In this document: positions 3,203 through 60,383 of the stretch, in pieces
Layout of the letters: the number at the start of each line of letters is the position of its first letter
Numbering within the stretch: position 1 is the stretch's first letter
Source: Escherichia phage Phi1
Length of the DNA: 64,000 bases
Sequence record: EF437941
Direction: 5' to 3' (one strand)
The notes under the pieces: model-generated
Databases searched by the model: none
The model's input: the letters and a program-made list of their open reading frames with translations, nothing else
What the model was told of the DNA's origin: nothing
Translations under genes and position numbers: made by a program

Positions 3203-3205
3203 GTG

Positions 3206-5029: not shown

Positions 5030-5132
5030 TATTAAACCTCTTCATAACATAACCATAACTTACTGCAACCGCCACAAAGACGGCTGCAACAATCATATTA
5101 AAAATTGAGTGATTGTCAAGTATATGACTCAT
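5022..5132 (-). CDS. small hydrophobic protein (36 aa)
   Basis: short ORF MSHILDNHSIFNMIVAAVFVAVAVSYGYVMKRFNNE; ATGA overlaps both neighbours; not in ORF track (<60 aa). Confidence 0.3.
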   Translation of the reverse strand: MSHILDNHSIFNMIVAAVFVAVAVSYGYVMKRFNNE

Positions 5133-5302
5133 GACACACGCACATTTTTATCGTAATACCCGCCATTAATCCCGCGCGGGGCAGTTAATCCCTGTTTGCA
5201 TTCTTTACCACATTCAGGACATTCTGCCTTTTCACGCTCGGAAATTTTGCGGATTTTCTGAAATTGACCATGTTCTTCACAAGAATAATCATATAATGGC
5301 AT
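5129..5302 (-). CDS. FmdB-family zinc-ribbon protein
   Basis: MPLYDYSCEEHG...CPECG: N-terminal MP-x-Y-x-Y-x-C and paired CxxC typical of FmdB zinc ribbon; internal ATG chosen. Confidence 0.6.
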   Translation of the reverse strand: MPLYDYSCEEHGQFQKIRKISEREKAECPECGKECKQGLTAPRGINGGYYDKNVRVS

Positions 5303-5303
5303 A

Positions 5304-5972
5304 TTATCCCCTTTGTTTCTTAACTGAATTTGGATCTGGATTTTCTGGCAAGTCTTCCAGACCCATAGCATAACGTTGTGCATAGATTAGCATAAGAATA
5401 TCGCGAGCGCAATCATGAATTGCATCATGCGCGATAAATCCGTCTAGCGTACCCATTGGTAACGGACACTCACACATCCCGCGATGCATCAATGTACGCT
5501 CAATGGCGGTACGAACATCTCGGATGTTCCAGAATCGCACAGGTTCAAGATTGAACGTCTCTCGTGTATTGTGTGCACGTCGAATCATATCAACTAGTAA
5601 TGGAATATCAAACGCATTACCGCGTGACCACATTACGGATTTAACCGGATCTACTCCTACGGATTCACAGAATGCGTTAAAACGCGCTAAACCTTCTTTA
5701 GTTGATACTTCCGTACCATTTGTGATTAATTGCTTTCTCATGCCTTCTGAGGCGGTATTCTTCCACCATTCAACCACACCATGATCAAACACCCTTACAC
5801 CTTTCTGGGAAGGAATATCAAATTTTACCAGAAAGGAATTGTCAACCAGTTCTTTAAATGTAGGTGGGTTGTGCGGATCTTCTTTAAATCCGATTGCTGC
5901 CATATTGATCACCGCCCCATCAGGCGGATAACCTAAACTTTCAAAGTCAATCATTAAATCCACAGGAAGCAT
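5304..5972 (-). CDS. dexA: exonuclease A (DexA, DnaQ-like 3'-5' exonuclease)
   Basis: DFESLG exo motif I, HDAIHDC motif III; close resemblance to T4 DexA as I remember it; internal ATG chosen. Confidence 0.85.
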   Translation of the reverse strand: MLPVDLMIDFESLGYPPDGAVINMAAIGFKEDPHNPPTFKELVDNSFLVKFDIPSQKGVRVFDHGVVEWWKNTASEGMRKQLITNGTEVSTKEGLARFNAFCESVGVDPVKSVMWSRGNAFDIPLLVDMIRRAHNTRETFNLEPVRFWNIRDVRTAIERTLMHRGMCECPLPMGTLDGFIAHDAIHDCARDILMLIYAQRYAMGLEDLPENPDPNSVKKQRG

Positions 5973-12170: not shown

Positions 12171-12806
12171 TTAATCTAATGTAGAAAGCAAATGTTTTGT
12201 TTCTTTCAGTTGTCGTTCAAGATTTTTGCGTTTCTCTTTAAGTTGCATTTTAGCATTATTTCGCTCTCTTGTAACCTCTTTATCAATGCTCTTATTCCAG
12301 TTATCAATATCAGAATAAGTTGGCATACCCAATTCTAGACCTAATGCGGTTGGATGCAGGGTAACAGTCCATAAACCGCTAATCTTCTTAAACAGGTCTG
12401 GGTGTATTGTACTACCTACATCTTCCGGTGTCAACTCTTTTTCTTCTTTCAGTGGTGGGGTCTCGTCATATGGTTCCAGTGCATTTACTTTAATATCAGA
12501 TACCTCATCAAAGAATCCTCGTACATCCGCAGGAAATACACAAGCAATTTCCCAACCGTGATCACGCAGAGAAGTAATATTTTTCACTCCCCCACCATGT
12601 GTGATGATTGATGTGACATTGCCATCAAGGTCCACCGAATTTACGAGAAATGGCTTATCGTCTGTCAGATCATTATAAAACTGTGCTTCGGCTGTAGTCA
12701 TCTCCAGAAACAGATCTCGGATCGGACGACCATCAGGTGCGTTACCTTCCTTGAGAGTATAAAAGCGACTTACGATCCATTTTGGCGGTAAAGCATTAGC
12801 GATCAT
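12171..12806 (-). CDS. hypothetical protein
   Basis: 211-aa ORF with C-terminal coiled coil. Confidence 0.55.
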   Translation of the reverse strand: MIANALPPKWIVSRFYTLKEGNAPDGRPIRDLFLEMTTAEAQFYNDLTDDKPFLVNSVDLDGNVTSIITHGGGVKNITSLRDHGWEIACVFPADVRGFFDEVSDIKVNALEPYDETPPLKEEKELTPEDVGSTIHPDLFKKISGLWTVTLHPTALGLELGMPTYSDIDNWNKSIDKEVTRERNNAKMQLKEKRKNLERQLKETKHLLSTLD

Positions 12807-12856
12807 GTTATATCTCCTATCAAATCATTCACCAGCGCCCCGCAGGGCGCATTTTA

Positions 12857-27723: not shown

Positions 27724-29193
27724 CTATTCCCCATTGCCATTATACTTTCTTTGCTTAGTTATCCACACTCTAACCATCTCTACTGATTCGCCGTCAGAGG
27801 GATCAAGAGTTTTTCCTTTTTTCTTCATGCGGTACTTAAATCCGTTAAATCTTGCATTCTCTTGCTCGTTAAAGTCGAACATCTTTTTAAATGATTTTCT
27901 CCCTTTACGCTCACCGCATTCTAGCGGAATCATTCGATCTGTTATTACATTGGCATTAGGCAGAAACGTTTTTAGATAATCCACCAACGCCCAATCAGGA
28001 ACATATAGATTAACATTCTCCTTGCTCTCGTTGTCTCTCAGGTTACAACGCAAACATAATTGAAATGCTGGTTCCAGATAATCAGACACATGACGCGCTT
28101 TCAAAAACTCGTTTGTCGGGAGATCACAACTATTAGCAAGACCTTTTAAAATATCAATCTCCCATCGTTGAGGGTTAAAGCTGAACATCACAGCAACATT
28201 TTTATGATGAATGTAAGAGTTAAGACCATAAGATCCGTAAGGTATCCGCTCACCAATACCATTTGTGCACGCTTCACGGTCCCGATTCACGGTATAAATG
28301 AAGTCATCACCACATTCATTTTTAACCATATCAACAAGACGTTCAAAGGTATTGTTTGTTTCTGACTGGTGACGTGACCAGCGTTCGGAGTCCGTCATAA
28401 GGATGATGTTAACTCTATCTGTATTTTTATACTCTTTGAAATATAGTCTGGATTCTAGCGCACTCGGAACAAAATCGCAATTTGCATAGTATCGTAGATA
28501 CTTCCCACTATATGTATCAAAGAGATTTGCACATGCTATCGTAACCTTTTTAAAGTCTCCCCACGTAACGTGTTTGTTATCGTTCAAGAAAACAATTTTC
28601 GACCCATTCTTCCGGTGTCCTTCGTTATGTTTTACCATAACGTTGATTTTCTTCTCTAATAACGCCTCATAAAGCCCTCTAAGAGAAGAATCGATCATAT
28701 CAGTACCATCCTTTGCACTTTCTATCTTTTCTTTGATAGCGGCCTTCTCAGAGTCTTTTAGAACTAAGTTCTGTAGGCATTCCGATTCGTCGGCGATTGG
28801 TTCGCAATGCTTCGTGATAAGTTCAAGATTAGACTTAAACGGATACTCATTAAATTCAACCAGTTGAGGAACTTCATCAATGTAAAGAGCATATTCACCA
28901 AACATTTTTGAACGTTCCATATTAGATAACGCTGTATGTGTAATGAATATCACATCAGCACCATCTTTAACTGATTGCATTATAGACGCTTGCACTGTCT
29001 TAAGGCTTCTTAGTCTTGTGCTATCAATCAAGACAGCACGACCGCCCATTCTTTTAAACTTATTGTAAGATTGTTCACTTAAAACACGAGATGGCGAAGC
29101 AATAACCGCTTTTTCTTTTGTCTCTAGGACGTGGGAAAGTATAGCATCAGTTTTCCCCGCCGCTGGCAATGCGATTAATGTTTCAATCTTCAT
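27724..29193 (-). CDS. P-loop NTPase, helicase-like (function unknown)
   Basis: 489 aa; Walker A ALPAAGKT at residues 8-15, SPSRVL (motif Ia-like), YIDEVPQ Walker B; remaining 370 aa without motifs I recognise. Confidence 0.65.
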   Translation of the reverse strand: MKIETLIALPAAGKTDAILSHVLETKEKAVIASPSRVLSEQSYNKFKRMGGRAVLIDSTRLRSLKTVQASIMQSVKDGADVIFITHTALSNMERSKMFGEYALYIDEVPQLVEFNEYPFKSNLELITKHCEPIADESECLQNLVLKDSEKAAIKEKIESAKDGTDMIDSSLRGLYEALLEKKINVMVKHNEGHRKNGSKIVFLNDNKHVTWGDFKKVTIACANLFDTYSGKYLRYYANCDFVPSALESRLYFKEYKNTDRVNIILMTDSERWSRHQSETNNTFERLVDMVKNECGDDFIYTVNRDREACTNGIGERIPYGSYGLNSYIHHKNVAVMFSFNPQRWEIDILKGLANSCDLPTNEFLKARHVSDYLEPAFQLCLRCNLRDNESKENVNLYVPDWALVDYLKTFLPNANVITDRMIPLECGERKGRKSFKKMFDFNEQENARFNGFKYRMKKKGKTLDPSDGESVEMVRVWITKQRKYNGNGE

Positions 29194-29660: not shown

Positions 29661-29919
29661 AAATCGCCCTCAGTTCTTTATAGCCTCCAATGTGCTCGTT
29701 GTCAATGAATATCTGGGGGTATACAAATCGGAGGCTCTTTGAGTTCAGCCTCCCCGCCAGTTCTTCAATCATATCACGGTCGGGAATAATGTCAACCCCG
29801 ACCTGCTTGAATACTGGTTTAAGTGTATACGGAATACCCAGATCATCCAGTAGCTTCATTGCACCAATACAACCATAACAATGATAAGCCTCTTTCGGTA
29901 TGCCGTATATCTCGATCAT
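29650..29919 (-). CDS. glutaredoxin/NrdH-like redoxin
   Basis: 89 aa; CYGC dithiol motif near N-terminus, glutaredoxin-like length; nrdH position. Confidence 0.6.
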   Translation of the reverse strand: MIEIYGIPKEAYHCYGCIGAMKLLDDLGIPYTLKPVFKQVGVDIIPDRDMIEELAGRLNSKSLRFVYPQIFIDNEHIGGYKELRAIYDY

Positions 29920-30392
29920 TTCTCAGCCTTTAATCTTTCTAGTTCTTCTTGCAGTTCCTTGATCCGTTGGTCACGTTCAAAGTCACGCTGCAACTTAGTG
30001 GCAAATACTCGTTTAAACTGTTTGTAATCATCGATTTTAAACACTTCTTCTTCGCCATAGCGACGCACAGAAACTTCGTAGTTATTGAAGAATTGTTGCA
30101 TCATTGCTTCGGATGATAGTTCTGCTGATACTACTTTAAAATATTGATCTTCGGTAGGTGAAAACCAATTACAAGCATAAAGATAAACCTTTTCATTGTC
30201 TGGACACTGGTAAGCCTTACCATCGATTTCAATCACAGAAACATATTCAGGTATAGTAGATGAATCAATAGCTAAGACTTTAAACGAACGGTCCCCGATA
30301 AACTCGGAGATCACACGATTCGCATCACTGGTTGCAAAGGCTTTACGCGCTTGTTCGCTTTTCCACTGATAGGTCATACCAACAACAAACAT
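29916..30392 (-). CDS. paralog family A protein
   Basis: MFVVGMTYQWKSEQARKAF...IEIDGKAY...; shares the about 90-aa N-terminal domain with seven neighbours. Confidence 0.55.
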   Translation of the reverse strand: MFVVGMTYQWKSEQARKAFATSDANRVISEFIGDRSFKVLAIDSSTIPEYVSVIEIDGKAYQCPDNEKVYLYACNWFSPTEDQYFKVVSAELSSEAMMQQFFNNYEVSVRRYGEEEVFKIDDYKQFKRVFATKLQRDFERDQRIKELQEELERLKAEK

Positions 30393-30393
30393 A

Positions 30394-31218
30394 TTACCAA
30401 CCTCGCTCTTTACCAATCAAAAATTCAACTTCACGACGTTTAATGTCTTCTTGAAGGTCTTTAATCTTCTGGCGATCTTGCATGATTTCGTCCATTTTGT
30501 CAAGTGCTGCAATAAAATCATCGAAACGTTCAAAGGTTTTACCTTCATTTGCTTCGCCAAATTTAACCATTGTCAGGCCGTAACGACTACTAAACAGACG
30601 TTTCAACTGTCCAACGATCTTAGAATCAGTGGTTATAACTTCCAATTCTTCTACTTCTTGAAAGAATTTTCTATCAGAATCAATAAACCAGCTAGTTCCT
30701 TTATGGTCTTTATCCTCGGTTGCGCTCATTAGAGTATGGTCTTTACCATCAATTTCAATTACATCAATTTGCCCACATGGACTAACCTTTTTAACAGTAA
30801 AAGGTCTATAATTTATTGCTCGTGCAATAACATAATTAAGGTTAGATACGTTTTCAGCATAATGACAGAAGTCGGTCATAGCCTTATCATCTTTCCCAGT
30901 GTAAGTTTTACCAACCTCCCATTTCTGGAGAACTTCTTCAACTTCACGAAAGAATTTTCTATCGAATGGACTAAAGAAATATGTTGCAGTCCAAATGTCT
31001 TTTCCTGTAGCAGTTTTCGCCGTATGATAAACACCGTCTAGCTCTATTGCATTAATCCAACCGTTACCCTCGATCTCGATGATGGTAAATGGCTTGTCAC
31101 CAATAGCTACGCTAATATCGCTATTAAGTGGAGAAAGAACACCTTCTCCGTTAGTAATAAACTCAGTTTTAGAGTTTTCATCTTTCCAAGTGTAAGTTTT
31201 ACCAATTTCCCATTTCAT
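30394..31218 (-). CDS. paralog family A protein (two tandem domain copies)
   Basis: MKWEIGKTYTWKD...DRKFFREVEE then KWEVGKTYTGKD...DRKFFQEVEE, followed by coiled-coil tail. Confidence 0.6.
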   Translation of the reverse strand: MKWEIGKTYTWKDENSKTEFITNGEGVLSPLNSDISVAIGDKPFTIIEIEGNGWINAIELDGVYHTAKTATGKDIWTATYFFSPFDRKFFREVEEVLQKWEVGKTYTGKDDKAMTDFCHYAENVSNLNYVIARAINYRPFTVKKVSPCGQIDVIEIDGKDHTLMSATEDKDHKGTSWFIDSDRKFFQEVEELEVITTDSKIVGQLKRLFSSRYGLTMVKFGEANEGKTFERFDDFIAALDKMDEIMQDRQKIKDLQEDIKRREVEFLIGKERGW

Positions 31219-31230
31219 AATATATTCCCC

Positions 31231-31695
31231 TTAACCGATTTTATCAAGTTCGTTTAATGCTTTCTCTGCTTCCTGTATAGCTTGCACCCTTTCCGGCATT
31301 TTGTCAAGAAAATCTTTCAACTCTTCAAAACTGGAGATATGACGCAAGGCGTTAGCACCGATAGCCGCATGTGATTTGCATTCAAAGCGAATTTTATAAT
31401 TATCCATCGCCAATTTGAGAAGATCAATTAGTTTAGATTCTTCTGGAATACTAATTTCTTCAAATCTGCTACGGTCGTGATCCAGAAACCAACAATATAG
31501 ACCTACATCGGTTGAACTCATATAAGTTCCATCATGAAGATATACAGATCGCACGTATCCTTTTTTCACATCAACCGACGCAACTTTAAACGGTAATCTC
31601 AGATATTTCAAATAATCAACATCATACCATTTAAAAAATTGGTTTGCATCTTTTACATCTTTCCACGCATAGGTCTTACCAACTTCCCATTTCAT
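31231..31695 (-). CDS. paralog family A protein
   Basis: MKWEVGKTYAWKD ... DRSRFEEI; helical C-terminus. Confidence 0.6.
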   Translation of the reverse strand: MKWEVGKTYAWKDVKDANQFFKWYDVDYLKYLRLPFKVASVDVKKGYVRSVYLHDGTYMSSTDVGLYCWFLDHDRSRFEEISIPEESKLIDLLKLAMDNYKIRFECKSHAAIGANALRHISSFEELKDFLDKMPERVQAIQEAEKALNELDKIG

Positions 31696-31699
31696 AATA

Positions 31700-32227
31700 T
31701 CATCTCTCATTTTTGATACGTGATTCTAATTGGATCATACGGTCGCGCGTTTGCTTGTATTCGCGGATAGCACCGATCCGGCTAGGCATACCATCCAGTA
31801 CGCTCTTAATCCCTTCTAGGGTAGTGATTTTAGCAATGCTATTATGTAACCCCATCTTATCGATCAACTGAATGTCGTAGGCTTCCATAAGCAGACCCAG
31901 GCGTTCTAAAGTTAGGTCTTCTTCCTTTTCTTCCGATTCTGGAATCTTAGGTTCAATAGTAACTTCTGTAAAGAAACGACGCTCACCCGACCAAAACCAC
32001 ACGCCGGAACAACCAATAGGGGATTCTTTTAACGTCATAGAGTCGTAACCACTGCCGATAATAGTAATTTCTCTAACATCACCATCATCGTCAATGTCTT
32101 CTACCCTAAACGGGCGACCAGCCAACAAGTCAACAATACATCTGTTAATAGACGACGAAAATTTAGTCAGTTCGGCTTTCGACGCTTCGCATTCAATCTT
32201 GTAAGTTTTACCAACTTCCCATTCCAT
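31700..32227 (-). CDS. paralog family A protein
   Basis: MEWEVGKTYKIE ... ERRFFTEV; helical C-terminus; GAGGTGA RBS. Confidence 0.6.
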   Translation of the reverse strand: MEWEVGKTYKIECEASKAELTKFSSSINRCIVDLLAGRPFRVEDIDDDGDVREITIIGSGYDSMTLKESPIGCSGVWFWSGERRFFTEVTIEPKIPESEEKEEDLTLERLGLLMEAYDIQLIDKMGLHNSIAKITTLEGIKSVLDGMPSRIGAIREYKQTRDRMIQLESRIKNER

Positions 32228-32237
32228 AATAATCACC

Positions 32238-32741
32238 TCAAATAATTTTCACTGGAATACTATTAACAATCTTGTATTGTACTTGATTGTCAGACCCCCG
32301 CCACGGCTTCTTCGTTGGCATATCTTTAATATAACGACCATCGATGAACATGTCAACTGATTCTACAATTTTTCTTTGCTCATCATTCAATTGGTCAAGG
32401 GTATAACCGGACCATAGCCAAATATCTTTATTTGGCATCCATGATTTTACTTCATCGATGATCCGCTGTACACCCTTTAAATTGCGTTTATACAGTGGAT
32501 CTCCACCTAAGAATGTTAGCCCCTGAATAAAATCAGGTCTAAGCAGATCCAGAATCAATCCCATTGTATCATCGGTGAATGGTTCCCCGTTCTTAGGATT
32601 GAGTATACTGGAATTAAAGCAACCATCACATGCGTGTGAACATCCGGTAACGTAAAGGGAGACTCTCACTCCCTCACCGTTAACCATATCACAATCTTTA
32701 ATATCGGCATAGCGTAGTTTGCCGTATGTATCAGAACTCAT
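32238..32741 (-). CDS. nrdG: anaerobic ribonucleotide reductase activating protein NrdG (radical SAM)
   Basis: CSHACDGC (Cx3Cx2C-type cluster) near N-terminus; about 167 aa. Confidence 0.85.
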   Translation of the reverse strand: MSSDTYGKLRYADIKDCDMVNGEGVRVSLYVTGCSHACDGCFNSSILNPKNGEPFTDDTMGLILDLLRPDFIQGLTFLGGDPLYKRNLKGVQRIIDEVKSWMPNKDIWLWSGYTLDQLNDEQRKIVESVDMFIDGRYIKDMPTKKPWRGSDNQVQYKIVNSIPVKII

Positions 32742-32883
32742 ATTCAATTACCCCGAACTCGTTTACAATCTGCGCTTTATAGTAACCGCCGCGAGATGCC
32801 AATAGATAAGCTGGGCTTAGGTATTCGTATTCACGGATTTCTACTTGTGCGTTTTCAGTTTCCCAAATCAGTAAAGTCCACAT
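32731..32883 (-). CDS. small protein (50 aa)
   Basis: manual translation MWTLLIWETENAQVEIREYEY...; preceded by cassette RBS GGAGAATCAAAT. Confidence 0.4.
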   Translation of the reverse strand: MWTLLIWETENAQVEIREYEYLSPAYLLASRGGYYKAQIVNEFGVIEYEF

Positions 32884-32924
32884 ATTTGATTCTCCTGTAA
32901 AGTTGTATCTCGTCTTGATGAATA

Positions 32925-32955
32925 TAGTATAGGGGATCTCGCGATCCCAGTCAAG
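32925..32955 (-). promoter_or_regulatory. early promoter (PeSL-type)
   Basis: TTGACT GGGATCGCGAGATCCCC TATACT: the 17-nt spacer is a perfect hairpin. Confidence 0.5.
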
Positions 32956-32958
32956 CGT

Positions 32959-33486
32959 TTATTTTAAATTTTTTCGAATGTATTCAGACCATTCCTTCCC
33001 TGTCATTTCGGACCCGTTCTGGAAACTGAAATATTCATACGGCATCGAGTCAAGATAAAACAGGATCATACATCGCGCCATATAATACCAATCACGATTA
33101 AAGTAAACTACGTTATCACCAGTACCATCAACCCCTTTATCATAACCATCGCGGGTACGGGAGACCCATTGAATAGTATCAGTTTTCTCACGGATAGTAA
33201 CAGGTTCCCAATATCCAGCACATCCAGCATGACCACACGAACAAGTAAGGAAATATTGTCCTTTTGCTTTGTTGTCATCCCATTCACGATGGATTGGTTC
33301 GATCTCGTGAAACAGTGCCAAACAATCATGATTATGCAACACTGGCTTACCATCAATCAATGCATGGAATGTATGCAAACGACCAGTAGACAAATAGCTA
33401 TCCTCACGCTCAACCAGTTCAATAGCAATCCTTTTAGCTCGTTCTTTGTGTCGTTGTGCTTTACGCTTACGGTTTAATGATTTCAT
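32959..33486 (-). CDS. hypothetical Cys/His-rich protein
   Basis: HNHDC ... CSCGHAGCAGYW; start at ATG after GAGGTGA RBS. Confidence 0.5.
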   Translation of the reverse strand: MKSLNRKRKAQRHKERAKRIAIELVEREDSYLSTGRLHTFHALIDGKPVLHNHDCLALFHEIEPIHREWDDNKAKGQYFLTCSCGHAGCAGYWEPVTIREKTDTIQWVSRTRDGYDKGVDGTGDNVVYFNRDWYYMARCMILFYLDSMPYEYFSFQNGSEMTGKEWSEYIRKNLK

Positions 33487-33503
33487 ATTCACCTCACACA
33501 TTA

Positions 33504-34046
33504 TCAAAGGTCGCGATATAGTACATTATGAAAATGAGAACTTGCATTACCAATATTGTAGATAATAAATTCTTCATCCGGCGCTTGCGCTACAAATTGA
33601 GTATGAGCAACCGCCACAACCTTAAAAATACGATCCGTTATCTTGTGTTTAATTTCTGCTCCTACTTCCATAGGAACATATTCCTGTGTTTCTGTTTCAG
33701 TCGCAAAACAGCCATCTTCTTCATAAGCACGAACAAATCGATCGCAATCAGTACGCTTAACAAATTCAAGAGTATACAATTCTCGTGAATTGTCGGTATA
33801 GACCAATACAGAATTATTATGATAGCGAATCACATACAGGTTATTATCATCGTCAATTACGCAAAAGCTACGGATTCCTTCGCCTTTACTCCAGCAGATA
33901 TTAACCACCGTTCCTCTAATAAAAAAACTTTCCTTTAAATTAAAACTAGTCAATGTGCTAGCGTGCATTTTAACAACAACACCATCGCCAATTTCCAGTT
34001 TACGAAGTTTAACTTCTTTGCTCAGTACACAAAACATCATCATCAT
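33504..34046 (-). CDS. hypothetical protein
   Basis: 180-aa ORF. Confidence 0.5.
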   Translation of the reverse strand: MMMMFCVLSKEVKLRKLEIGDGVVVKMHASTLTSFNLKESFFIRGTVVNICWSKGEGIRSFCVIDDDNNLYVIRYHNNSVLVYTDNSRELYTLEFVKRTDCDRFVRAYEEDGCFATETETQEYVPMEVGAEIKHKITDRIFKVVAVAHTQFVAQAPDEEFIIYNIGNASSHFHNVLYRDL

Positions 34047-34075
34047 GTTGTCCTCTCGTTGTTTTCGATGTGAGC

Positions 34076-34103
34076 ATTATACATTAGCTAATCACGTTGT
34101 CAA
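34076..34103 (-). promoter_or_regulatory. early promoter
   Basis: TTGACA-N16/17-TATAAT. Confidence 0.5.
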
Positions 34104-34113
34104 CACCCCAAAA

Positions 34114-34140
34114 CGAAAAAGCCGACCCTTTCGGATCGGC
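34114..34140 (-). terminator. rho-independent terminator after nrdD
   Basis: AGCCGATCCGAAAGGGTCGGCTTTTTCG; same hairpin family as terminators at 47362 and 53276. Confidence 0.6.
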
Positions 34141-34146
34141 TAAAAA

Positions 34147-36009
34147 TTACATGTGCTTAACGCGGTTTACCATCTCGGAGTGTTTCCCGTGGTTAAATGG
34201 ACGCAGATCAACAGATCCAAGATATCCACTAACGCGACGGATAACATTCATTTTTTCCAGATTATCATTGCCGCAATCAGGACAAACAAAACCAGTCTCG
34301 GTCGCTCTCATTTCCTTAGTAGATCCGCATACATGACACACATCAGAAGGAGTATTAACACCGAAGTAGTGCAATTTATCCATTGCATAGTCTACTACAG
34401 TTTCAAGACCTTTCAGGTTGTTTTTCATGTCTGGGAACTCAACATAAGAGATCATGCCACCGGACGCCAGCCAGTGATAATCTTTCTCAAAGTCGATTTT
34501 CTCAAATGGAGTGACTTTCCGGTCTACGTCGAGGTGGAATGAGTTGGTGTACCAGTCTTTATCGGTAGCGCCCTTAACAATACCAAATTGCTCTCGGTCC
34601 AGTCGATTAAATCGATAGCAAAGGCTCTCGGCTGGCGTACCGTAAAGACTAAACCCAAGTCCGGTTTCGTCCTTCCATTTTTCAGTATAATGACGCAAGA
34701 TCTTAAGAATATGTTTACCGTATCGCTGCACATCTTCCGAATCAAACGGATGAACACCAAACAGGACGCTCAATACCTCATGTAAACCAATATATCCAAG
34801 AGAGATACTAGCGCGACCATCTTTCAGCACTTCAAAAATTTCATCGTTTTGATGAATACGGAAAAATGCACCTTCGGTATACAGTACAGGAGCAACATTG
34901 GCTTTAGCCCCTTTTAAAGCGTCTACGCGACTCATGAGCGCATCAAAGCAAATAGGCATACGATTAGCTAGCTCTTGTTCGAATAGCTCAATTCTGCGCA
35001 TTACAGACGCTTTACCAGCACGACGCGCGGCAATAAGGGCAATACGCGGAAGATTCAGAGTCACAACACCTAAGTTATTACGTCCGTCTAATACTTCTTC
35101 GCCTTTCTCATTATGCCACACACCCAGGAAGCTACGACAACCCATCGGGCTAACCGGAACACTAGATCCAGTGATACTACGGTTATTCTTCGCAGAGATA
35201 TAATCAGGGGTAAGACGCTTACTAGAACATTCCAATGCAAGTTGCTTAATGTCGTAGTTCGGATCTTCCGGGTTAAGGTTTAATCCTTCTTCTAAGAACA
35301 TCACCAGCTTAGGAAACACCGGAGTTATACCATCTTTACCTAAACCTTTAGTTCGAACTTTCAGGATCGCTTTCTGAATCAGTTTTTCTTCCCAGCTAGT
35401 ACCCATACCAAATGTTAAAGTCACAAAAGGCGTTTGACCGTTGGTGGAGAACAAAGTGTTGATTTCATATTCCAACGCTTGATACCCGTCTAGCGTTTCT
35501 TTTTCTGTCTTCTCTTGTGCATAGAGAGTATCAGCTTTGATTCCGTAGGTTTCGGCATCAGCAAGGTGTTTATGATATGTTTTCTCAACATACGGTGCTA
35601 ACACCTGATCGATGTTTGCAATTGTGGTCCCGCCATATTGATGACTTGCCACCTGTGCGATAATTTGAGCGGTTACAGCACAAGCAACACCGATCGATTT
35701 AGGACTTTCGATTTGTGCGCTACCCAATTTAAAACCATTCTCTAACATGTCTTTGAGATTAACAAGACAGCAGTTAGTAAACGGCATAGCGGGTGCATAA
35801 TCCATATCATGATAATGAATATCACCGTCTACATGCGCTTTATAGATGTGCTCAGGTAACACGGTTTTAGCAATCTGTTTAGACACAGCGCCAGCAATCA
35901 GATCTCGACGTGTCGGGAATGTTCGCGCGTCTTTGTTCGCGTTCTCTTTGCTTACTTCGTTTTCTTTACCCGTTGCGATCTCTGTAATGTCTTTGATTAG
36001 TTTTTCCAT
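34147..36009 (-). CDS. nrdD: anaerobic ribonucleoside-triphosphate reductase NrdD
   Basis: 620 aa; C-terminal zinc ribbon CHVCGS...CPDCG and glycyl radical motif RVSGYLG; continuous ORF (no intron). Confidence 0.95.
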   Translation of the reverse strand: MEKLIKDITEIATGKENEVSKENANKDARTFPTRRDLIAGAVSKQIAKTVLPEHIYKAHVDGDIHYHDMDYAPAMPFTNCCLVNLKDMLENGFKLGSAQIESPKSIGVACAVTAQIIAQVASHQYGGTTIANIDQVLAPYVEKTYHKHLADAETYGIKADTLYAQEKTEKETLDGYQALEYEINTLFSTNGQTPFVTLTFGMGTSWEEKLIQKAILKVRTKGLGKDGITPVFPKLVMFLEEGLNLNPEDPNYDIKQLALECSSKRLTPDYISAKNNRSITGSSVPVSPMGCRSFLGVWHNEKGEEVLDGRNNLGVVTLNLPRIALIAARRAGKASVMRRIELFEQELANRMPICFDALMSRVDALKGAKANVAPVLYTEGAFFRIHQNDEIFEVLKDGRASISLGYIGLHEVLSVLFGVHPFDSEDVQRYGKHILKILRHYTEKWKDETGLGFSLYGTPAESLCYRFNRLDREQFGIVKGATDKDWYTNSFHLDVDRKVTPFEKIDFEKDYHWLASGGMISYVEFPDMKNNLKGLETVVDYAMDKLHYFGVNTPSDVCHVCGSTKEMRATETGFVCPDCGNDNLEKMNVIRRVSGYLGSVDLRPFNHGKHSEMVNRVKHM

Positions 36010-36054
36010 TGTATCACCTATGAAAAAGCGGGATTTTCTCCCGCTCGTTGATAG

Positions 36055-36549
36055 TTATTTTACCAGTTCTGCTAATTCTTTTTCTTTAGCTTCCAGTTCA
36101 GCCTTAAGCTGTTTAATCTCTTGTCGCTTCTTATTAGCGGCTTCCTGCTTACTATTTCGGATAATCTGATCTAGATACAACTCCCAATCCTGAATATTTT
36201 TGATAATATAACCGTCAACATTAATTGGTCGGATATTTAGTACAGCTTCCAGTTTAGTCGCAAAAACTTTAATTGCTGGTGTGAAGTATTCATATTCGTT
36301 ATCTTCAAACCAATAACCTAGACTTGCATTCTCAATGCGAAGACGAAGTTCAAGATCAAGGTCTTTATCTTCGGTGTAAAGATCTTGCACATGTCCCATC
36401 GAGCTAACAACAACTTTAAAACGAATTTTATCAACACCACCAAACACATCAGTAAGGATACCAGCAATTGAGCTATTAGCGCAAGATTGGTCGCTGAATG
36501 CGTCAAGGTTTTCTTTAGTTACAGTATACCAAACATCTTGTACCCACAT
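36055..36549 (-). CDS. paralog family A-like protein (divergent)
   Basis: divergent copy of the N-terminal domain plus coiled-coil C-terminus (KQLKAELEAKEKELAEL). Confidence 0.5.
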   Translation of the reverse strand: MWVQDVWYTVTKENLDAFSDQSCANSSIAGILTDVFGGVDKIRFKVVVSSMGHVQDLYTEDKDLDLELRLRIENASLGYWFEDNEYEYFTPAIKVFATKLEAVLNIRPINVDGYIIKNIQDWELYLDQIIRNSKQEAANKKRQEIKQLKAELEAKEKELAELVK

Positions 36550-36579
36550 AATATAATCCTCTCGTTGTTAAGTGGGAGT

Positions 36580-36607
36580 ATTATAGCATACTCCCTTTGC
36601 ATGTCAA
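36580..36607 (-). promoter_or_regulatory. early promoter (PeSL-type)
   Basis: TTGACA ... TATAAT inside GGGAGTATGCTATAATACTCCC hairpin. Confidence 0.5.
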
Positions 36608-37782
36608 GCACGAACTTTTTTCTTTACTGCTTTCACCTTCTGGCGAATTGCTCGAATCTCTTCGATCTCTTTTTCAGTCTCTTTAACAATTTCTTTGCGA
36701 TTCTGAATATCTGTATCGAGATTATCATCAAGTTTAGGCAGCATGTCAATCAAGAACTTTTTAAAGTCTTTCAGGTTTCGGATAACAGCACCTTCACCCA
36801 TTACCGCCACCCCTACACCATCCGGCAGATCACCAAACAGCTTAACCAGTTCAGATAGATGACCATGATCTTCTAGTGCTTCTTCCGGTTCAGATGGCAG
36901 TTCAACAAAGTAATAACGTTCATCATTGCTGATCAGGTGATACCAGCAAAGCCCAAAAGATTTAGGAGTATATTCTACACCACCAACTTCAACCGCGTCA
37001 ACACTTCCGAAAGAATCTACTTTAGTTACCTTAAATCCATGTTCCAGCGTTTTAATAATTTCAATAACATGACTGGATACGGTTTCAGTATTAAACCAAT
37101 GAGGCAAATTATGTGGATTTGGTTTGTATCGTTCGCCTACTTTAAATCTCTGACCACGCTCTTGCATACGGACATATTCAACTCGCGTGATTTCCGCGAA
37201 GTATTCAAATTCGCTACCGTCAAACAAGCAATTCCATTGATCACAAAAACGATCCGCCTTAACGGTTTCACCTTTCGCGGTGATCATGGTAGCCGACCCG
37301 TGCAATTCTTCTTCAACTAAAAAGCCATATTCGACAAAATCAACAAGTTTCATGGCTTCTTTGTGCTCTGGATCATGCTCTCCCCAGAATCGCTTAAATT
37401 CTTGCAAACCTTCCGGGGTAAACGAATAACATTTACCTTTTTCAAAGTAAGTCGGCATTGCATCCTCTTTCTTGTTCATCGCTTCGTATGCCTCTTTTGA
37501 GATACGTTTAAAGAATTTACGCTCATCGTGCATAAGCATAACAGCCCAATAATAAACGATATCCTCAGCGGAATAAACTACATCTCCAGCTTCAATAGTA
37601 ATAACATGACCGTGGTCATCTTTTTCTAATACTTTAAAGCCCTTTTCTACGATTCCAGCAACCCGAATATGACCACGGCGCGAAGCATCGGTCGGAATAG
37701 TTGAATAGCGAGAAAAGTCTAGAAACTCATCTTTACCACCTTCACGGAATGCATAGTAATGCCCTTCAAAGAATTTAGCCAT
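36604..37782 (-). CDS. paralog family A protein (multi-domain, 392 aa)
   Basis: three to four repeats of the family domain (e.g. HDERKFFKRI, NDERYYFVEL) plus coiled-coil tail. Confidence 0.6.
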   Translation of the reverse strand: MAKFFEGHYYAFREGGKDEFLDFSRYSTIPTDASRRGHIRVAGIVEKGFKVLEKDDHGHVITIEAGDVVYSAEDIVYYWAVMLMHDERKFFKRISKEAYEAMNKKEDAMPTYFEKGKCYSFTPEGLQEFKRFWGEHDPEHKEAMKLVDFVEYGFLVEEELHGSATMITAKGETVKADRFCDQWNCLFDGSEFEYFAEITRVEYVRMQERGQRFKVGERYKPNPHNLPHWFNTETVSSHVIEIIKTLEHGFKVTKVDSFGSVDAVEVGGVEYTPKSFGLCWYHLISNDERYYFVELPSEPEEALEDHGHLSELVKLFGDLPDGVGVAVMGEGAVIRNLKDFKKFLIDMLPKLDDNLDTDIQNRKEIVKETEKEIEEIRAIRQKVKAVKKKVRA

Positions 37783-37813
37783 AATATAATCCTCTCGTTG
37801 TTTAAATGGGAGT

Positions 37814-37842
37814 ATCTTACTACTCCCGTTTCATCATGTCAA
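37814..37842 (-). promoter_or_regulatory. early promoter (PeSL-type)
   Basis: TTGACA-N17-TAAGAT with GGGAGTAGTAAGATACTCCC hairpin; -35 overlaps upstream stop codon. Confidence 0.5.
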
Positions 37843-38405
37843 GCGTTAAATGACTTTTGGATCTCTTTCAGTTCAGCTACTTTATCGGCGCTATACTTTG
37901 CTTGATGTTCCATGCGCTTAAGCTCACCTTTGATATAGGTTTCTAGCTTAGGTTTATTCTCAATCAGAAAATCTTTCAAGTCATCGGCATTTTTAAAGTA
38001 TAGCTGATTATCAAAGCTAAAATCTTCCAGCGTCAATGATACCAAAGAAGACTTCGCAAACAAGTTAATCAGATCTTCCAGAGATTCTTCTTTCTTAACT
38101 GGTTTCATTTCTTCAAACTGCTTTTTAGTGATGCGTTTAAAGTATTTGCGCTCGCTTGCATCAATCATTATTGACGCGCCCTCATAATCATGAGTTTCTA
38201 CCAAATACACTTTACCCATAACATTAACCGTAAGAACTTTAAAGCCCCGGTGAAGCACACCATACAGGAACTTGTTATGTTGTGGATAGCGTTTAACAAA
38301 TTCCTCTGCGGACTCAGAATTACGGAAAGTGTAATAACGACCTCGTTCAAAAACAGCATCATTTGAAGACTTAGACGGATACAATTTATACGTTTTCTGT
38401 ACCAT
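37839..38405 (-). CDS. paralog family A protein
   Basis: MVQKTYKLY ... SERKYFKRI; helical C-terminus. Confidence 0.55.
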   Translation of the reverse strand: MVQKTYKLYPSKSSNDAVFERGRYYTFRNSESAEEFVKRYPQHNKFLYGVLHRGFKVLTVNVMGKVYLVETHDYEGASIMIDASERKYFKRITKKQFEEMKPVKKEESLEDLINLFAKSSLVSLTLEDFSFDNQLYFKNADDLKDFLIENKPKLETYIKGELKRMEHQAKYSADKVAELKEIQKSFNA

Positions 38406-38419
38406 AATATAATCCTCTA

Positions 38420-38692
38420 TCATTTCACTAATTGAACAGCACGAAACAGAATGCGGTCACACGGAAGCAGCATAAATTCCCAACGCGGATCAAAGTCTTT
38501 AGCGGTGTATGTTTTCCCATCAACAGAGATTTCACTTACATAACCAATAGGTGACACTTTAAGAACAGTAAATCCATTCTTGATTGCTTCGTAGGTATCT
38601 TTCAGACCTTCGTAGTCGTCCTCTAAGAAGTCTTTACGTGCTTGCTCAGATTTAAAAACATAGGCCACGCCAGCTTTAAACATCTTACGCAT
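38420..38692 (-). CDS. paralog family A protein (single domain)
   Basis: MRKMFKAGVAYVFKSEQARKDF ... VDGKTYTAKDF; AAGGAGAATCAACA RBS. Confidence 0.55.
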   Translation of the reverse strand: MRKMFKAGVAYVFKSEQARKDFLEDDYEGLKDTYEAIKNGFTVLKVSPIGYVSEISVDGKTYTAKDFDPRWEFMLLPCDRILFRAVQLVK

Positions 38693-38723
38693 TGTTGATT
38701 CTCCTTCTTGATTAGATGGGAGC

Positions 38724-38752
38724 ATTTTACTACTCCCATTTCTTATTGTCAA
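38724..38752 (-). promoter_or_regulatory. early promoter (PeSL-type)
   Basis: TTGACA-N17-TAAAAT with GGGAG..CTCCC hairpin. Confidence 0.5.
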
Positions 38753-55833: not shown

Positions 55834-56172
55834 TCACACCTTTAAAGTCATAGACGCATAAACATTAATGCCAGGCCAGTTAGGATCGCAATTATACTCA
55901 ACATCCCACAAATAAAGCGGTTTAGATGTATCAGCCAAGTTTTTAAAATCTTCTACCCACATTTCAATGCTATATGATGGATAAACTAGGCTGTCATATC
56001 CTCCGTAACGTTGGCCTACTGGTCGGTCAGTAAAAACTACCTCAAGATCCGGTAATTCTTTTTCAAGGATAACCGCCAGCGCATAAATCAGACGGTCTTC
56101 CTTGTTACGCTGCCGAAGGACCGTTGTCAGTTGGTTTTTCTGGTTCACTAGCAAGCACCTCCACATTTTCAC
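55834..56172 (-). CDS. hypothetical protein (start uncertain; overlaps upstream ORF by 68 nt)
   Basis: 112-aa ORF. Confidence 0.4.
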   Translation of the reverse strand: MKMWRCLLVNQKNQLTTVLRQRNKEDRLIYALAVILEKELPDLEVVFTDRPVGQRYGGYDSLVYPSYSIEMWVEDFKNLADTSKPLYLWDVEYNCDPNWPGINVYASMTLKV

Positions 56173-56425
56173 AGAATGAAATTTTCACAGACACAATTTT
56201 ACCATAAGTGAAGAATGAATATACATTATCGATATATTCAACGTCACCTACAATCACATCAAACTGCGGATCAGCAACCGCCGCAACATATTCTACCAGT
56301 TCATCAAGAGAATGCAACTTAATTTCATCAATTCGGCTGTATTTGGTTGCATCTTTGATTTTAAAACCACGTTCTTTCAGCTTATCAATTAGAATTTCAC
56401 GCGGAGTTTCAAACAGTTTGCTCAT
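56105..56425 (-). CDS. hypothetical protein
   Basis: 106-aa ORF with GAGGATT RBS. Confidence 0.5.
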   Translation of the reverse strand: MSKLFETPREILIDKLKERGFKIKDATKYSRIDEIKLHSLDELVEYVAAVADPQFDVIVGDVEYIDNVYSFFTYGKIVSVKISFCENVEVLASEPEKPTDNGPSAA

Positions 56426-56446
56426 AATATAATCCTCACATTAAAT

Positions 56447-59941: not shown

Positions 59942-60316
59942 TTAAGAATATTTTACTTCGTCTACAATGTCTTTCATGACATTGATTTCCATTCCGGTCA
60001 GAACACGTTGGAACATGTGCTGAACATACGCTTTCAGGTATTCATTTGATGGCTTGCTATCGAAAGTCTTTTTAGTGTAGTAGTCATCACCGAAAGCTAC
60101 TGTAATTACATTTTCGTCGTCGTTCCAAGCGATATAAGCAAATTTGCCGTTATCCCAGAAGCGAGCACTAATTGCTACTTTTGTTGAATCGAATCCTACT
60201 TCGCTGTGAGATTCAAGAACTACTTGCGTGCCAGTTTCTTTATGAATGTAGTAGCGGGATACTAAGTCAAAGTTACGGGTGTAGTGACATTCGAACTTAT
60301 CTTTAAACATCATCAT
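59942..60316 (-). CDS. hypothetical protein
   Basis: ORF with GGAGAATCAAAA RBS. Confidence 0.5.
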   Translation of the reverse strand: MMMFKDKFECHYTRNFDLVSRYYIHKETGTQVVLESHSEVGFDSTKVAISARFWDNGKFAYIAWNDDENVITVAFGDDYYTKKTFDSKPSNEYLKAYVQHMFQRVLTGMEINVMKDIVDEVKYS

Positions 60317-60354
60317 TTTTGATTCTCCCAAGTGTTTTTCGTTTCTATGTGTGC

Positions 60355-60383
60355 ATTATGCTATAGTCGTTTATGGTTGTCAA
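60355..60383 (-). promoter_or_regulatory. early promoter
   Basis: TTGACA-N17-CATAAT. Confidence 0.5.

What the first reader, a model, noticed from the sequence alone, without database searches (positions are those of the whole stretch)
29916..38692. Expanded paralogous gene family (8 copies, about 90-aa domain) flanking nrdG/nrdD
Eight minus-strand genes share an N-terminal domain: W-E-V-G-K-T-Y-x-W-K near the start, a central PF..V and IEIDGK-like strand, and a [DE]RKFF-x-EV end. One cluster is at 29916..32227 and the other at 36055..38692. Copy number varies inside single proteins (two in the 274-aa protein, three to four in the 392-aa protein), and most carry a helical or coiled-coil tail. 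Each gene has its own promoter/RBS cassette. I do not recognise the domain from any characterised family. Tandem, internally duplicated and rapidly diverging genes next to cassette promoters are what I would expect of a phage host-interaction or counter-defence family.
Basis: seen in the sequence. Interest (0 to 1): 0.8.

Follow-up and report, generated by a model that had tools for sequence, protein, structure and literature searches.

The report
Expanded GoF-like gene family in RB49-type phage
The eight repeated genes are real, but their shared domain is the N-terminal barrel of phage T4's GoF/Frd.2 proteins, already described but of unknown function; this RB49-like phage carries an unusually large set (nine genes, twelve domain copies), so it is a new member of a known kind.

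Summary
The window is a Krischvirus (RB49-like T4-type coliphage). All eight minus-strand genes share a ~90-aa N-terminal domain, with copy numbers 1, 2, 1, 1, 1, 3, 1, 1.

The domain is not unknown. It is the N-terminal domain of T4 GoF and Frd.2 (profile E 4e-17 and 7e-9), the family that Kim et al. 2025 called "LSm-like". My AlphaFold2 model (pLDDT 85.5) shows a five-stranded SH3-like barrel. Its nearest solved folds are FeoA, IdeR and the Mib repeat, not Hfq.

Six genes add a shared small C-terminal domain ending in a long helix. The genes are under purifying selection (dN/dS 0.08-0.5). Whole alleles are swapped between phages, and domain number changes by exact 288-bp steps (phage E26 has one barrel where this phage has two). 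Distant T4-like phages carry similar arrays in the same slot next to nrdD.

Only three genes have their own promoter cassette, a known PeSL element; g1-g4 sit in the nrdG operon.

Function is still inferred: probably early accessory adaptors acting on mRNA fate. Counter-defence is unproven.

The parts
29916..30392 (-). g1, 158 aa: one GoF-like N-terminal barrel (DNA 30117-30392) plus the shared C-terminal domain with a terminal helix
   Evidence: ORF; RB49p048; profile E 7e-35; phrog_5347 over the full length
30394..31218 (-). g2, 274 aa: two barrels in tandem (30931-31218 and 30637-30927) plus the shared C-terminal domain (30394-30636)
   Evidence: Two profile domains, E 2e-38 and 4e-40. Direct DNA repeats 288-291 bp apart. 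Phage E26 lacks exactly the second barrel
31231..31695 (-). g3, 154 aa: one barrel plus the shared C-terminal domain
   Evidence: BLASTP to g4 E 7e-13 over 1-142
31700..32227 (-). g4, 175 aa: one barrel plus acidic linker plus the shared C-terminal domain. This is the protein modelled
36055..36549 (-). g5, 164 aa: the most divergent barrel plus a helical tail whose homology to the shared C-terminal domain is not shown
   Evidence: Leave-one-out profile E 2e-9; C-terminal profile E 0.11 only; phrog_15067
36604..37782 (-). g6, 392 aa (RB49 'frd.2/goF'): three barrels (37492-37782, 37177-37455, 36883-37155) plus the shared C-terminal domain (36604-36882)
   Evidence: Three profile domains, E 1e-24, 1e-23 and 3e-27 after iteration; phrog_8944 'goF'; RB49p058
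37839..38405 (-). g7, 188 aa: a 16-residue leader, one basic barrel (38097-38357) and the shared C-terminal domain
   Evidence: barrel pI 9.5
38420..38692 (-). g8, 90 aa: the barrel alone, with no C-terminal domain
   Evidence: Profile E 2e-31; RB49p060
12171..12806 (-). One barrel (12492-12785) plus a helical tail
   Evidence: Profile E 1.8e-6 on first pass and 5e-20 with the leave-one-out (g5-excluded) profile. RB49 Dc2. The BFVD structure match list includes Dc2 of phage ECD7, E 1e-7
36574..36607 (-). PeSL-type promoter/stem-loop cassette before g5 (TTGACA...GGGAGTA-TGCTATAA-TACTCCC), followed by the shared ribosome-binding cassette AACAACGAGAGGATTATATTATG
   Evidence: 12 of 12 sigma-70 match; pattern search gives 3 hits against 0 expected; promoter annotated in GEC-3S; PeSL defined in PMC2839356
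37808..37842 (-). PeSL-type cassette before g6
   Evidence: 23 of 23 nt ribosome-binding cassette identical to that of g5 (D3)
38718..38752 (-). PeSL-type cassette before g8; it probably drives g8-g7-g6
   Evidence: 79-nt repeat with the g6 cassette at 71% (D2); promoter annotated in GEC-3S

Best explanation
These genes are a Krischvirus expansion of the phage T4 GoF/Frd.2/MotB.1 family: nine genes with twelve domain copies.

Architecture. Each protein carries one to three copies of a ~90-aa SH3-like, five-stranded beta-barrel. This is the fold Kim et al. call 'LSm-like' and which is closest to FeoA. An acidic linker follows. In six genes (g1-g4, g6, g7) there is then a shared ~78-aa helix/beta-hairpin/helix domain ending in a long amphipathic helix, which probably pairs chains.

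Expression. The genes are read from sigma-70-type early promoters. g8-g7-g6 and g5 are served by PeSL cassettes, and g1-g4 form the tail of the nrdG operon.

Origin. The family grew by tandem gene duplication, by in-frame duplication or deletion of single 288-bp barrel units between short direct repeats, and by exchange of whole alleles between phages.

Function (inferred, not shown). They are non-essential prereplicative accessory proteins in which the conserved barrel is a scaffold and its variable surface binds a ligand. By analogy with GoF, the pathway touched is most likely mRNA fate: transcript stability, or the Rho/RNase interplay. They would act either by binding RNA directly or, given that most copies are acidic, by binding host RNA-metabolism proteins. 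Having several barrels per chain and pairing of chains would increase avidity.
For: Shown:
- Family identity. A window-only profile hits T4 GoF at E 5e-10 and Frd.2 at 2.5e-4. A broader profile gives GoF 4e-17, Frd.2 7e-9 and MotB.1 4e-5. PHROG 'goF' families are hit. Pfam FRD2 is the only Pfam family that relatives hit repeatedly.
- C-terminal domain. Full-length PHROG and BLASTP alignments link g1-g4, g6 and g7. The modelled terminal helix 147-174 has pLDDT ~95.
- Selection. dN/dS is 0.08-0.5 for every paralog. The genes are intact in 57 Krischvirus genomes.
- Unit gain and loss. The E26 gene equals the first barrel of g2 joined to the g2 C-terminal domain, an exact 288-bp difference whose junction lies inside a 30-nt direct repeat.
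- Conserved slot. Arrays next to nrdD recur in distant relatives L013, L014 and L015.
- Promoters.

From the literature:
- GoF(D25Y) stabilises a gene-41 leader RNA post-transcriptionally. GoF is an abundant early protein, and GoF and MotB.1 also migrate at about twice the monomer size on non-reducing SDS gels, read by the authors as a dimer (PMC12152347).
- frd.2 was the only 'Fit' gene of unknown function in T4 in the CRISPRi-ART screen (PMC11879866).

Supporting inference: the two GoF suppressor positions are naturally aromatic (g2b, g3, g4, g6a, g6b) and basic (g2a, g2b, g4, g6a, g7) in the window copies.
Against: [quoted passage not shown] The mRNA link therefore rests on one gain-of-function allele.
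- Nine of the twelve barrels are acidic (net charge -2 to -10), which is untypical of RNA binders.
- No Sm or Hfq protein appears among my fold neighbours, and all fold scores are low.
- No experiment exists for any Krischvirus member.
- Pairing through the terminal helix is inferred only.
- Homology of the C-terminal tails of g5 and Dc2 is not shown.
Confidence: 0.55

Rival explanations
1. The paralogs would be counter-defence or host-takeover inhibitors. Each barrel surface would be tuned to bind and neutralise a different host protein, such as a defence-system component, with no role in RNA.
For: - The genes lie in a hyperplastic accessory region flanked by mobile PeSL cassettes.
- The paralogs are expanded. 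Conservation is confined to core hydrophobic residues while surface positions vary.
- Divergent alleles are swapped between close phages: g2 75%, g5 64% and g7 82% amino-acid identity against ~99% for the neighbouring genes.
- Most copies are acidic.
- The nearest solved folds (FeoA, Mib repeat, IdeR SH3, Tudor) are largely protein- or peptide-binding modules; this characterisation comes from my own knowledge.
- T4 members are dispensable on laboratory strains.
Against: - No family member has been reported as an anti-defence factor in the papers I could search.
- The only phenotypes known concern rho alleles and mRNA level.
- dN/dS is below 1 throughout, with no sign of positive selection at whole-gene level.
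Confidence: 0.25
2. The proteins would be true Sm/Hfq-like RNA chaperones. The barrels would assemble into six-membered rings (for example three barrels per chain in a dimer, or two per chain in a trimer) that bind phage or host RNAs as Hfq does.
For: - GoF(D25Y) stabilises RNA.
- Chains with 1, 2 or 3 barrels plus an oligomerising helix could in principle give six barrels.
Against: - There are no Pfam LSM or Hfq hits, even at E 1, across 48 relatives.
- The model has no helix before strand 1 and instead places two helices between strands 1 and 2.
- AlphaFold3 gave Kim et al. no confident dimer or hexamer.
- Most barrels are acidic.
Confidence: 0.07
3. The genes would be functionally inert 'ORFan' passengers, copied and shuffled by PeSL-mediated recombination and kept only by hitch-hiking.
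For: - PeSL cassettes promote insertion, deletion and mini-circle formation of non-essential ORFs in RB49 and phi1.
- T4 homologues are dispensable in the laboratory.
Against: - dN/dS is 0.08-0.5 in all nine genes.
- The reading frames are intact in 57 genomes.
- The family, and its slot next to nrdD, are retained in relatives so distant that only profiles detect them.
- GoF is made at about 20,000 copies per cell.
- frd.2 knock-down lowers T4 fitness.
Confidence: 0.05

Closest known systems
Phage T4 GoF (comC-alpha), 141 aa
   Same: The N-terminal barrel is homologous over its full length (E 4e-17). It shares the motifs F-x-V-x-K-x-Y, PF-K-I and F-F-D-E-V, the acidic linker after the barrel, and its status as an early non-essential gene.
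   Different: - T4 has one single-barrel goF next to gene 39. RB49-type phages have nothing at that site but carry nine genes elsewhere, some with two or three barrels.
- The C-terminal domain here ends in a long helix and shows no detected similarity to the short GoF tail.
- GoF has Ala-Gly where most copies here have Arg-Lys/Arg. It has Asp where five copies have an aromatic residue.
Phage T4 Frd.2 (Pfam PF03197 FRD2) and MotB.1
   Same: Both belong to the same barrel family (E 7e-9 and 4e-5). RB49's g6 was originally named frd.2.
   Different: No window protein reaches the PF03197 threshold. The T4 proteins have single barrels with different C-terminal parts.
FeoA and the C-terminal SH3-like domain of DtxR/IdeR/SloR regulators
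   Different: - There is no sequence-profile relation (Pfam FeoA is not hit).
- The scores are low enough to indicate a shared fold only.
- No FeoB or metal-regulator context was noticed next to the family genes in the window.
Sm/LSm/Hfq fold
   Same: It is a small, strongly bent five-stranded antiparallel sheet. This is the label used in the 2025 paper, and there is a link to RNA through GoF(D25Y).
   Different: The helix placement differs, there are no Sm motifs or profile hits, no ring is predicted, and Sm/Hfq is not among my nearest fold neighbours.
PeSL regulatory cassettes of RB49/phi1 (Arbiol et al. 2010; Comeau et al. 2014)
   Same: The 'cassette promoters' before g5, g6 and g8 are a strong sigma-70 promoter combined with a GC-rich stem-loop, located in a hyperplastic region next to nrdD.
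   Different: Only three of the nine family genes have one. These three share the same GGGAGTA/TACTCCC stem, with the -10 hexamer in its loop.

Membership tests
GoF/Frd.2/MotB.1 phage family (Kim et al. 2025) | [quoted passage not shown] | tested here: met
   The window-only profile gives GoF E 5e-10 and Frd.2 2.5e-4. The broad profile gives 4e-17, 7e-9 and 4e-5. All alignments are full-length.
GoF/Frd.2/MotB.1 phage family (Kim et al. 2025) | The N-terminal domain is predicted as a bent five-stranded antiparallel beta-sheet | tested here: met
   AF2 model of g4: pLDDT 85.5, strands at 8-11, 40-45, 51-56, 59-62 and 86-89
GoF/Frd.2/MotB.1 phage family (Kim et al. 2025) | N-terminal domain joined by a flexible linker to a variable C-terminal domain | tested here: met
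   pLDDT dips to 62 at residues 91-100, in the acidic linker. The C-terminal parts differ between subgroups. g8 lacks a C-terminal domain.
GoF/Frd.2/MotB.1 phage family (Kim et al. 2025) | Nearest solved folds are FeoA/IdeR-type SH3-like domains | tested here: met
GoF/Frd.2/MotB.1 phage family (Kim et al. 2025) | Early (prereplicative) expression in a T4-type phage | tested here: inconclusive
   Sigma-70-type promoter cassettes lie before g5, g6 and g8, and the nrdG operon promoter serves g1-g4. No expression data exist.
GoF/Frd.2/MotB.1 phage family (Kim et al. 2025) | Effect on mRNA level or stability, or suppression of rho (nusD) restriction | not testable with these tools
   This needs reporter or decay assays, or plating on rho mutants.
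Pfam PF03197 FRD2 | Score above the Pfam gathering threshold | tested here: not met
   No window protein hits FRD2 at E <= 0.1. Only 4 of 48 aligned relatives hit it, best E 2e-5.
Sm/LSm/Hfq | Match to LSM or Hfq sequence profiles (Sm1/Sm2 motifs) | tested here: not met
   No such Pfam hit for the eight proteins or for 48 relatives at E <= 1
Sm/LSm/Hfq | N-terminal alpha-helix followed by the five strands | tested here: not met
   The model begins with strand 1 and has two helices (14-23 and 26-35) between strands 1 and 2.
Sm/LSm/Hfq | Sm/Hfq structures among the closest fold neighbours | tested here: not met
Sm/LSm/Hfq | Hexameric or heptameric ring that binds RNA | not testable with these tools
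   No multimer prediction was available to me. AlphaFold3 gave Kim et al. no confident multimers.
FeoA (Pfam PF04023) | Sequence-profile match | tested here: not met
   No Pfam FeoA hit. The similarity is at fold level only.
PeSL cassette (Arbiol et al. 2010) | Strong sigma-70-like promoter combined with a stem-loop, in a hyperplastic region | tested here: met
   TTGACA-N6-9-GGGAG-N10-12-CTCCC occurs three times against 0 expected, before g5, g6 and g8. Promoter matches are 10 to 12 of 12. nrdD is named as a PeSL-associated gene in PMC2839356.
PeSL cassette (Arbiol et al. 2010) | Promoter and terminator activity; recombination into mini-circles | not testable with these tools
   This needs reporter fusions or PCR on phage DNA.
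Known phage anti-defence proteins | Homology to, or demonstrated inhibition of, a defence system | not tested
   No anti-defence library was available. Literature searches found no link.

The most novel reading that the evidence does not exclude
The Krischvirus paralogs would be the naturally 'active' forms of GoF. Several copies (g2b, g4, g6a) already carry, on one face of the barrel, the aromatic residue and the basic residue that T4 GoF acquires only through its rho-suppressor mutations D25Y and G84R. Proteins with one to three barrels, paired by the C-terminal helix, would then be multivalent protectors of phage transcripts against Rho-dependent termination or RNase attack. Different paralogs would be tuned to different transcripts or host factors. 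On this reading, wild-type T4 GoF is a weakened outlier of the family.
Probability: 0.12. Interest if true: 0.65.

Novelty: new member of a known kind. Interest (0 to 1): 0.35.

Why it matters
GoF has been a puzzle since its rho-suppressor alleles were isolated. Its wild-type role is still unknown, and the 2025 study found activity only in a mutant.

This phage offers twelve natural variants of the same barrel, arranged one, two or three per chain, with or without the helical tail. Some natively carry the residues that activate T4 GoF. That gives a ready panel for asking what the barrel binds.

The locus is also a clean example of how T4-type phages remodel accessory genes: exact one-domain steps between short direct repeats, allele swapping, and PeSL cassettes.

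It does not reveal a new kind of system.

Tried and rejected
- Pfam and NCBIfam scans of the nine proteins gave only sub-threshold noise, such as RecT, LYR, HALZ and ribosomal protein L23.
- The search for homologous proteins with the alignment returned only 8 hits and was of little use.
- The single-sequence AF2 run was unusable (pLDDT 40). It was replaced by a run on a 48-row alignment.
The afdb50 fold library was unavailable.
- The PDB sequence search found no relative. The Rfam scan of 27-41 kb found nothing.
- Profile hits to giant proteins (P0012, 5094 aa; P0016, 797 aa) are repeat-summed artefacts on adhesin-like repeats.
- A possible tenth member at 59942-60355 (E ~0.01), and weaker ones at 56105-56440 and 33504-34046, were not accepted.
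- Homology of the g5 and Dc2 tails to the shared C-terminal domain could not be shown.
- RB49 was scanned for further members at 1-70 kb, 114-146 kb and 155-164 kb, and none was found. The regions 70-114 kb and 146-155 kb (structural and tail-fibre genes) were not scanned.
- I considered calling the fold 'LSm'. I rejected this as a membership claim because the tested Sm features were not met.

Full report
**What the window is**

The 8.8-kb stretch matches 57 phage records at 90-99% DNA identity (54 of them over at least 80% of the query), all Krischvirus (RB49-like T4-type coliphages). RB49 itself matches at 96.4%. The RB49 record shows the same gene order: nrdH, four hypothetical genes, nrdG, three small ORFs, nrdD, four hypothetical genes, then gene 49. 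All are on the minus strand.

**Observation check**

The eight ORFs exist and their starts agree with the RB49 gene calls. All-against-all BLASTP links them at E 1e-7 to 7e-13. A profile made from six obvious copies finds two copies in g2. It also finds g6 (E 7e-19), g7 (1e-6) and an unlisted gene at 12171-12806 (1.8e-6) among the 645 six-frame ORFs of the window. Iteration settles on three copies in g6. The weakest gene, g5, scores E 2e-9 over the whole domain against a broader profile built without it.

The alignment has invariant Tyr, Phe and Phe. The similarity is even visible in DNA. A 57-nt repeat marks the 5' ends of g2b, g2a, g3 and g4 at 63-82% identity. A 30-nt repeat (90% identity, 288 nt apart) marks the ends of the two g2 domains.

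The observation therefore holds, with these corrections:
- Copy numbers are 1, 2, 1, 1, 1, 3, 1, 1.
- There is a ninth gene. It is RB49's Dc2, lying between genes 41 and 61.
- No further member was found in the parts of RB49 that I scanned.

**What the domain is**

PHROG profiles already tie these proteins to families annotated 'goF mRNA metabolism modulator', and RefSeq labels two of them that way. T4 GoF shows the same motifs on direct reading. The window-only profile aligns to all of its N-terminal domain at E 5e-10, and to Frd.2 at 2.5e-4. The broad profile gives GoF 4e-17, Frd.2 7e-9 and MotB.1 4e-5.

No window protein hits any Pfam or NCBIfam model. Among 48 relatives, the only Pfam family hit repeatedly is PF03197 FRD2. 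No relative has a solved structure.

**Structure**

A single-sequence prediction failed. With a 48-row alignment, the AF2 model of g4 reached pLDDT 85.5. Its elements, in order:
- strand 8-11, then helices 14-23 and 26-35
- strands 40-45, 51-56 and 59-62
- a loop with short helices, then strand 86-89
- a low-confidence acidic linker
- helix 103-116, a beta-hairpin, helix 137-145, and a long helix 147-174

Foldseek against viral models finds 81 proteins at E below 1e-3, all unnamed. They come from T4-type phages of Escherichia, Aeromonas, Proteus, Morganella, Edwardsiella, Citrobacter, Pectobacterium and Serratia. The list also includes phAPEC8, which lies outside Straboviridae, and Dc2 of phage ECD7.

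**Architecture**

g1-g4, g6 and g7 share the C-terminal domain. Full-length PHROG 5347 alignments and BLASTP pairs run through it. g5 and Dc2 have helical tails, but I could not show that these are homologous. g8 is a bare barrel.

Nine of the twelve barrels are acidic, g7 is basic, and g3 and g8 are near neutral.

**Evolution**

Against RB49 and the more distant JK32, every paralog has dN/dS of 0.08-0.5. The values for nrdD are 0.05-0.10, for gp41 0, and for the neighbouring 489-aa gene 0.02.

g2, g5 and g7 are only 75%, 64% and 82% identical to their JK32 counterparts, and their dS is raised as well. This points to allele replacement rather than fast point mutation.

Phages E26 and ELT4 have a 178-aa gene at the g2 position. 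It equals the first barrel of g2 joined directly to the g2 C-terminal domain. The difference is exactly 288 bp, and the junction lies inside the 30-nt direct repeat.

An exhaustive profile search of 1.84 billion representative proteins finds only 75 at E below 1e-3. The long ones are repeat artefacts. Among all 69 short proteins returned by the two protein searches that match the profile, ten have two or three barrels.

Three distant relatives show that arrays are the rule:
- A 71-kb contig has five adjacent genes with two or three barrels each, a few genes upstream of an nrdD that is split by endonuclease genes.
- A 3.3-kb contig has six adjacent single-barrel genes.
- A third contig has gene 49, then three family genes, then nrdD, the same slot as g5-g8.

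RB49 has nothing at T4's goF/motB.1 site between gene 39 and dexA.

**Transcription**

Consensus scans find strong sigma-70-type sites directly before g5 (12 of 12), g8 (11 of 12) and g6 (10 of 12), and a weak one before g2.

The three strong sites are one cassette type: TTGACA, then a GGGAGTA/TACTCCC stem with the -10 hexamer in its loop, then a shared ribosome-binding stretch. That stretch is identical before g5 and g6. The cassette pattern occurs three times in the window against none expected. These are the PeSL cassettes of Arbiol et al. 2010: strong early promoters combined with stem-loops that mediate shuffling in RB49 and phi1, with nrdD named among the associated genes.

g1, g3, g4 and g7 start 1-14 nt after the preceding gene. 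The GEC-3S annotators place only four promoters in the whole stretch, which puts g1-g4 in the nrdG operon.

No Rfam family or meaningful tandem DNA repeat lies in the region. Plus-strand ORFs are short and antisense to the supported genes.

**How it probably works**

*Shown:* family identity, fold class, modular architecture, purifying selection, unit-wise domain gain and loss, and promoter layout.

*From the literature:*
- GoF is an abundant early protein and is dispensable in the laboratory.
- GoF(D25Y) raises the stability of a gene-41-leader RNA post-transcriptionally and independently of Hfq. Wild-type GoF and MotB.1 do little.
- GoF and MotB.1 also run as dimers on non-reducing gels.
- frd.2 was the one unknown 'Fit' gene of T4 in a knock-down screen.

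*Inferred:* the barrel core is a scaffold, because the conserved columns are hydrophobic. The variable surface binds the ligand. The terminal helix pairs chains. Several barrels per chain raise avidity.

The two GoF suppressor positions can be placed reliably because they sit three residues after, and two residues before, conserved phenylalanines. In the window copies, the first is Tyr, Trp or Phe in five copies. The second is Lys or Arg in five copies. The residue before it is Arg in nine of twelve, where GoF has Ala-Gly. Kim et al. place both sites on one face of the barrel. Copies g2b, g4 and g6a therefore natively have the 'activated' pattern.

This favours a role in mRNA fate. However, the acidic charge of most barrels and the protein-binding character of the nearest folds leave a protein-ligand or counter-defence role open. 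I put about 0.9 on the family assignment and about 0.3 on the mRNA mechanism. The stated confidence of 0.55 is for the combined statement.

**Novelty and verdict**

The domain, its fold and its family are published, and two of the genes are already labelled goF-like. New here:
- the scale of the Krischvirus set, nine genes with twelve barrels
- Dc2 as a member
- the two- and three-barrel chains and the exact one-unit polymorphism
- the shared C-terminal domain
- the conserved slot beside nrdD in distant phages
- the natural occurrence of the suppressor-type residues

This makes it a new member of a known kind, of moderate interest. It is useful mainly as a natural variant panel for the old question of what GoF does.

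Noticed in passing
window 30646-30675 and 30934-30963; L011 1601-2137 (phage E26): Phage E26 (and, by its tblastn match, ELT4) carries a single-barrel version of g2. In E26 it differs by exactly 288 bp. The junction falls inside a 30-nt direct repeat (90% identical), which looks like a textbook unequal-recombination product.
   Followed up: yes
window 27724-29193 (-): A 489-aa protein of unknown function (phrog_2467) has a weak DEAD/helicase P-loop match (Pfam E 3e-6). It is extremely conserved (dN/dS 0.02) and keeps its place in a distant relative (L015).
   Followed up: partly
window 33504-34046 (-), promoter 34103-34076, terminator 34141-34120: The 180-aa ORF between nrdD and nrdG is only 60% identical to its JK32 counterpart although the flanks are ~99% identical. 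It has a perfect 12-of-12 sigma-70 promoter placed right after the nrdD terminator. It gave only a sub-threshold hit to the barrel profile.
   Followed up: partly
window 12807-12856 (between gene 41 and Dc2): The family member Dc2 sits directly downstream of helicase gene 41, after a GCGCCC-TGCG-GGGCGC hairpin. T4 GoF(D25Y) acts on gene 41 mRNA. This may be a coincidence.
   Followed up: no
RB49 record 3205-5971 (L005): RB49-type genomes have no goF, cef, motB or motB.1 between gene 39 and dexA, where T4 keeps them. The whole family sits elsewhere in the genome.
   Followed up: partly
L013 13991-18722: In a distant T4-like contig, nrdD is broken into pieces by a SegE-like GIY-YIG gene and an I-HmuI-like endonuclease gene. 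Just upstream lie five multi-barrel family genes.
   Followed up: no
window 59942-60355 (-) and 56105-56440 (-): These are marginal matches to the barrel profile (E about 0.01 and 0.04). The first also weakly matches Pfam Gp30.7. Whether they are very distant relatives is unresolved.
   Followed up: partly
window 36547-36569, 37780-37802, 38403-38425, 34041-34063: The translation-start cassette AACAACGAGAGGATTATATTATG is identical before g5 and g6 and 78-83% identical before g7 and the 180-aa ORF. The ribosome-binding region is therefore shared beyond the family.
   Followed up: partly
proteins P0012 and P0016: The barrel profile picks up giant repetitive bacterial adhesin-like proteins through many short partial matches. 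This is a trap for automated family building.
   Followed up: yes
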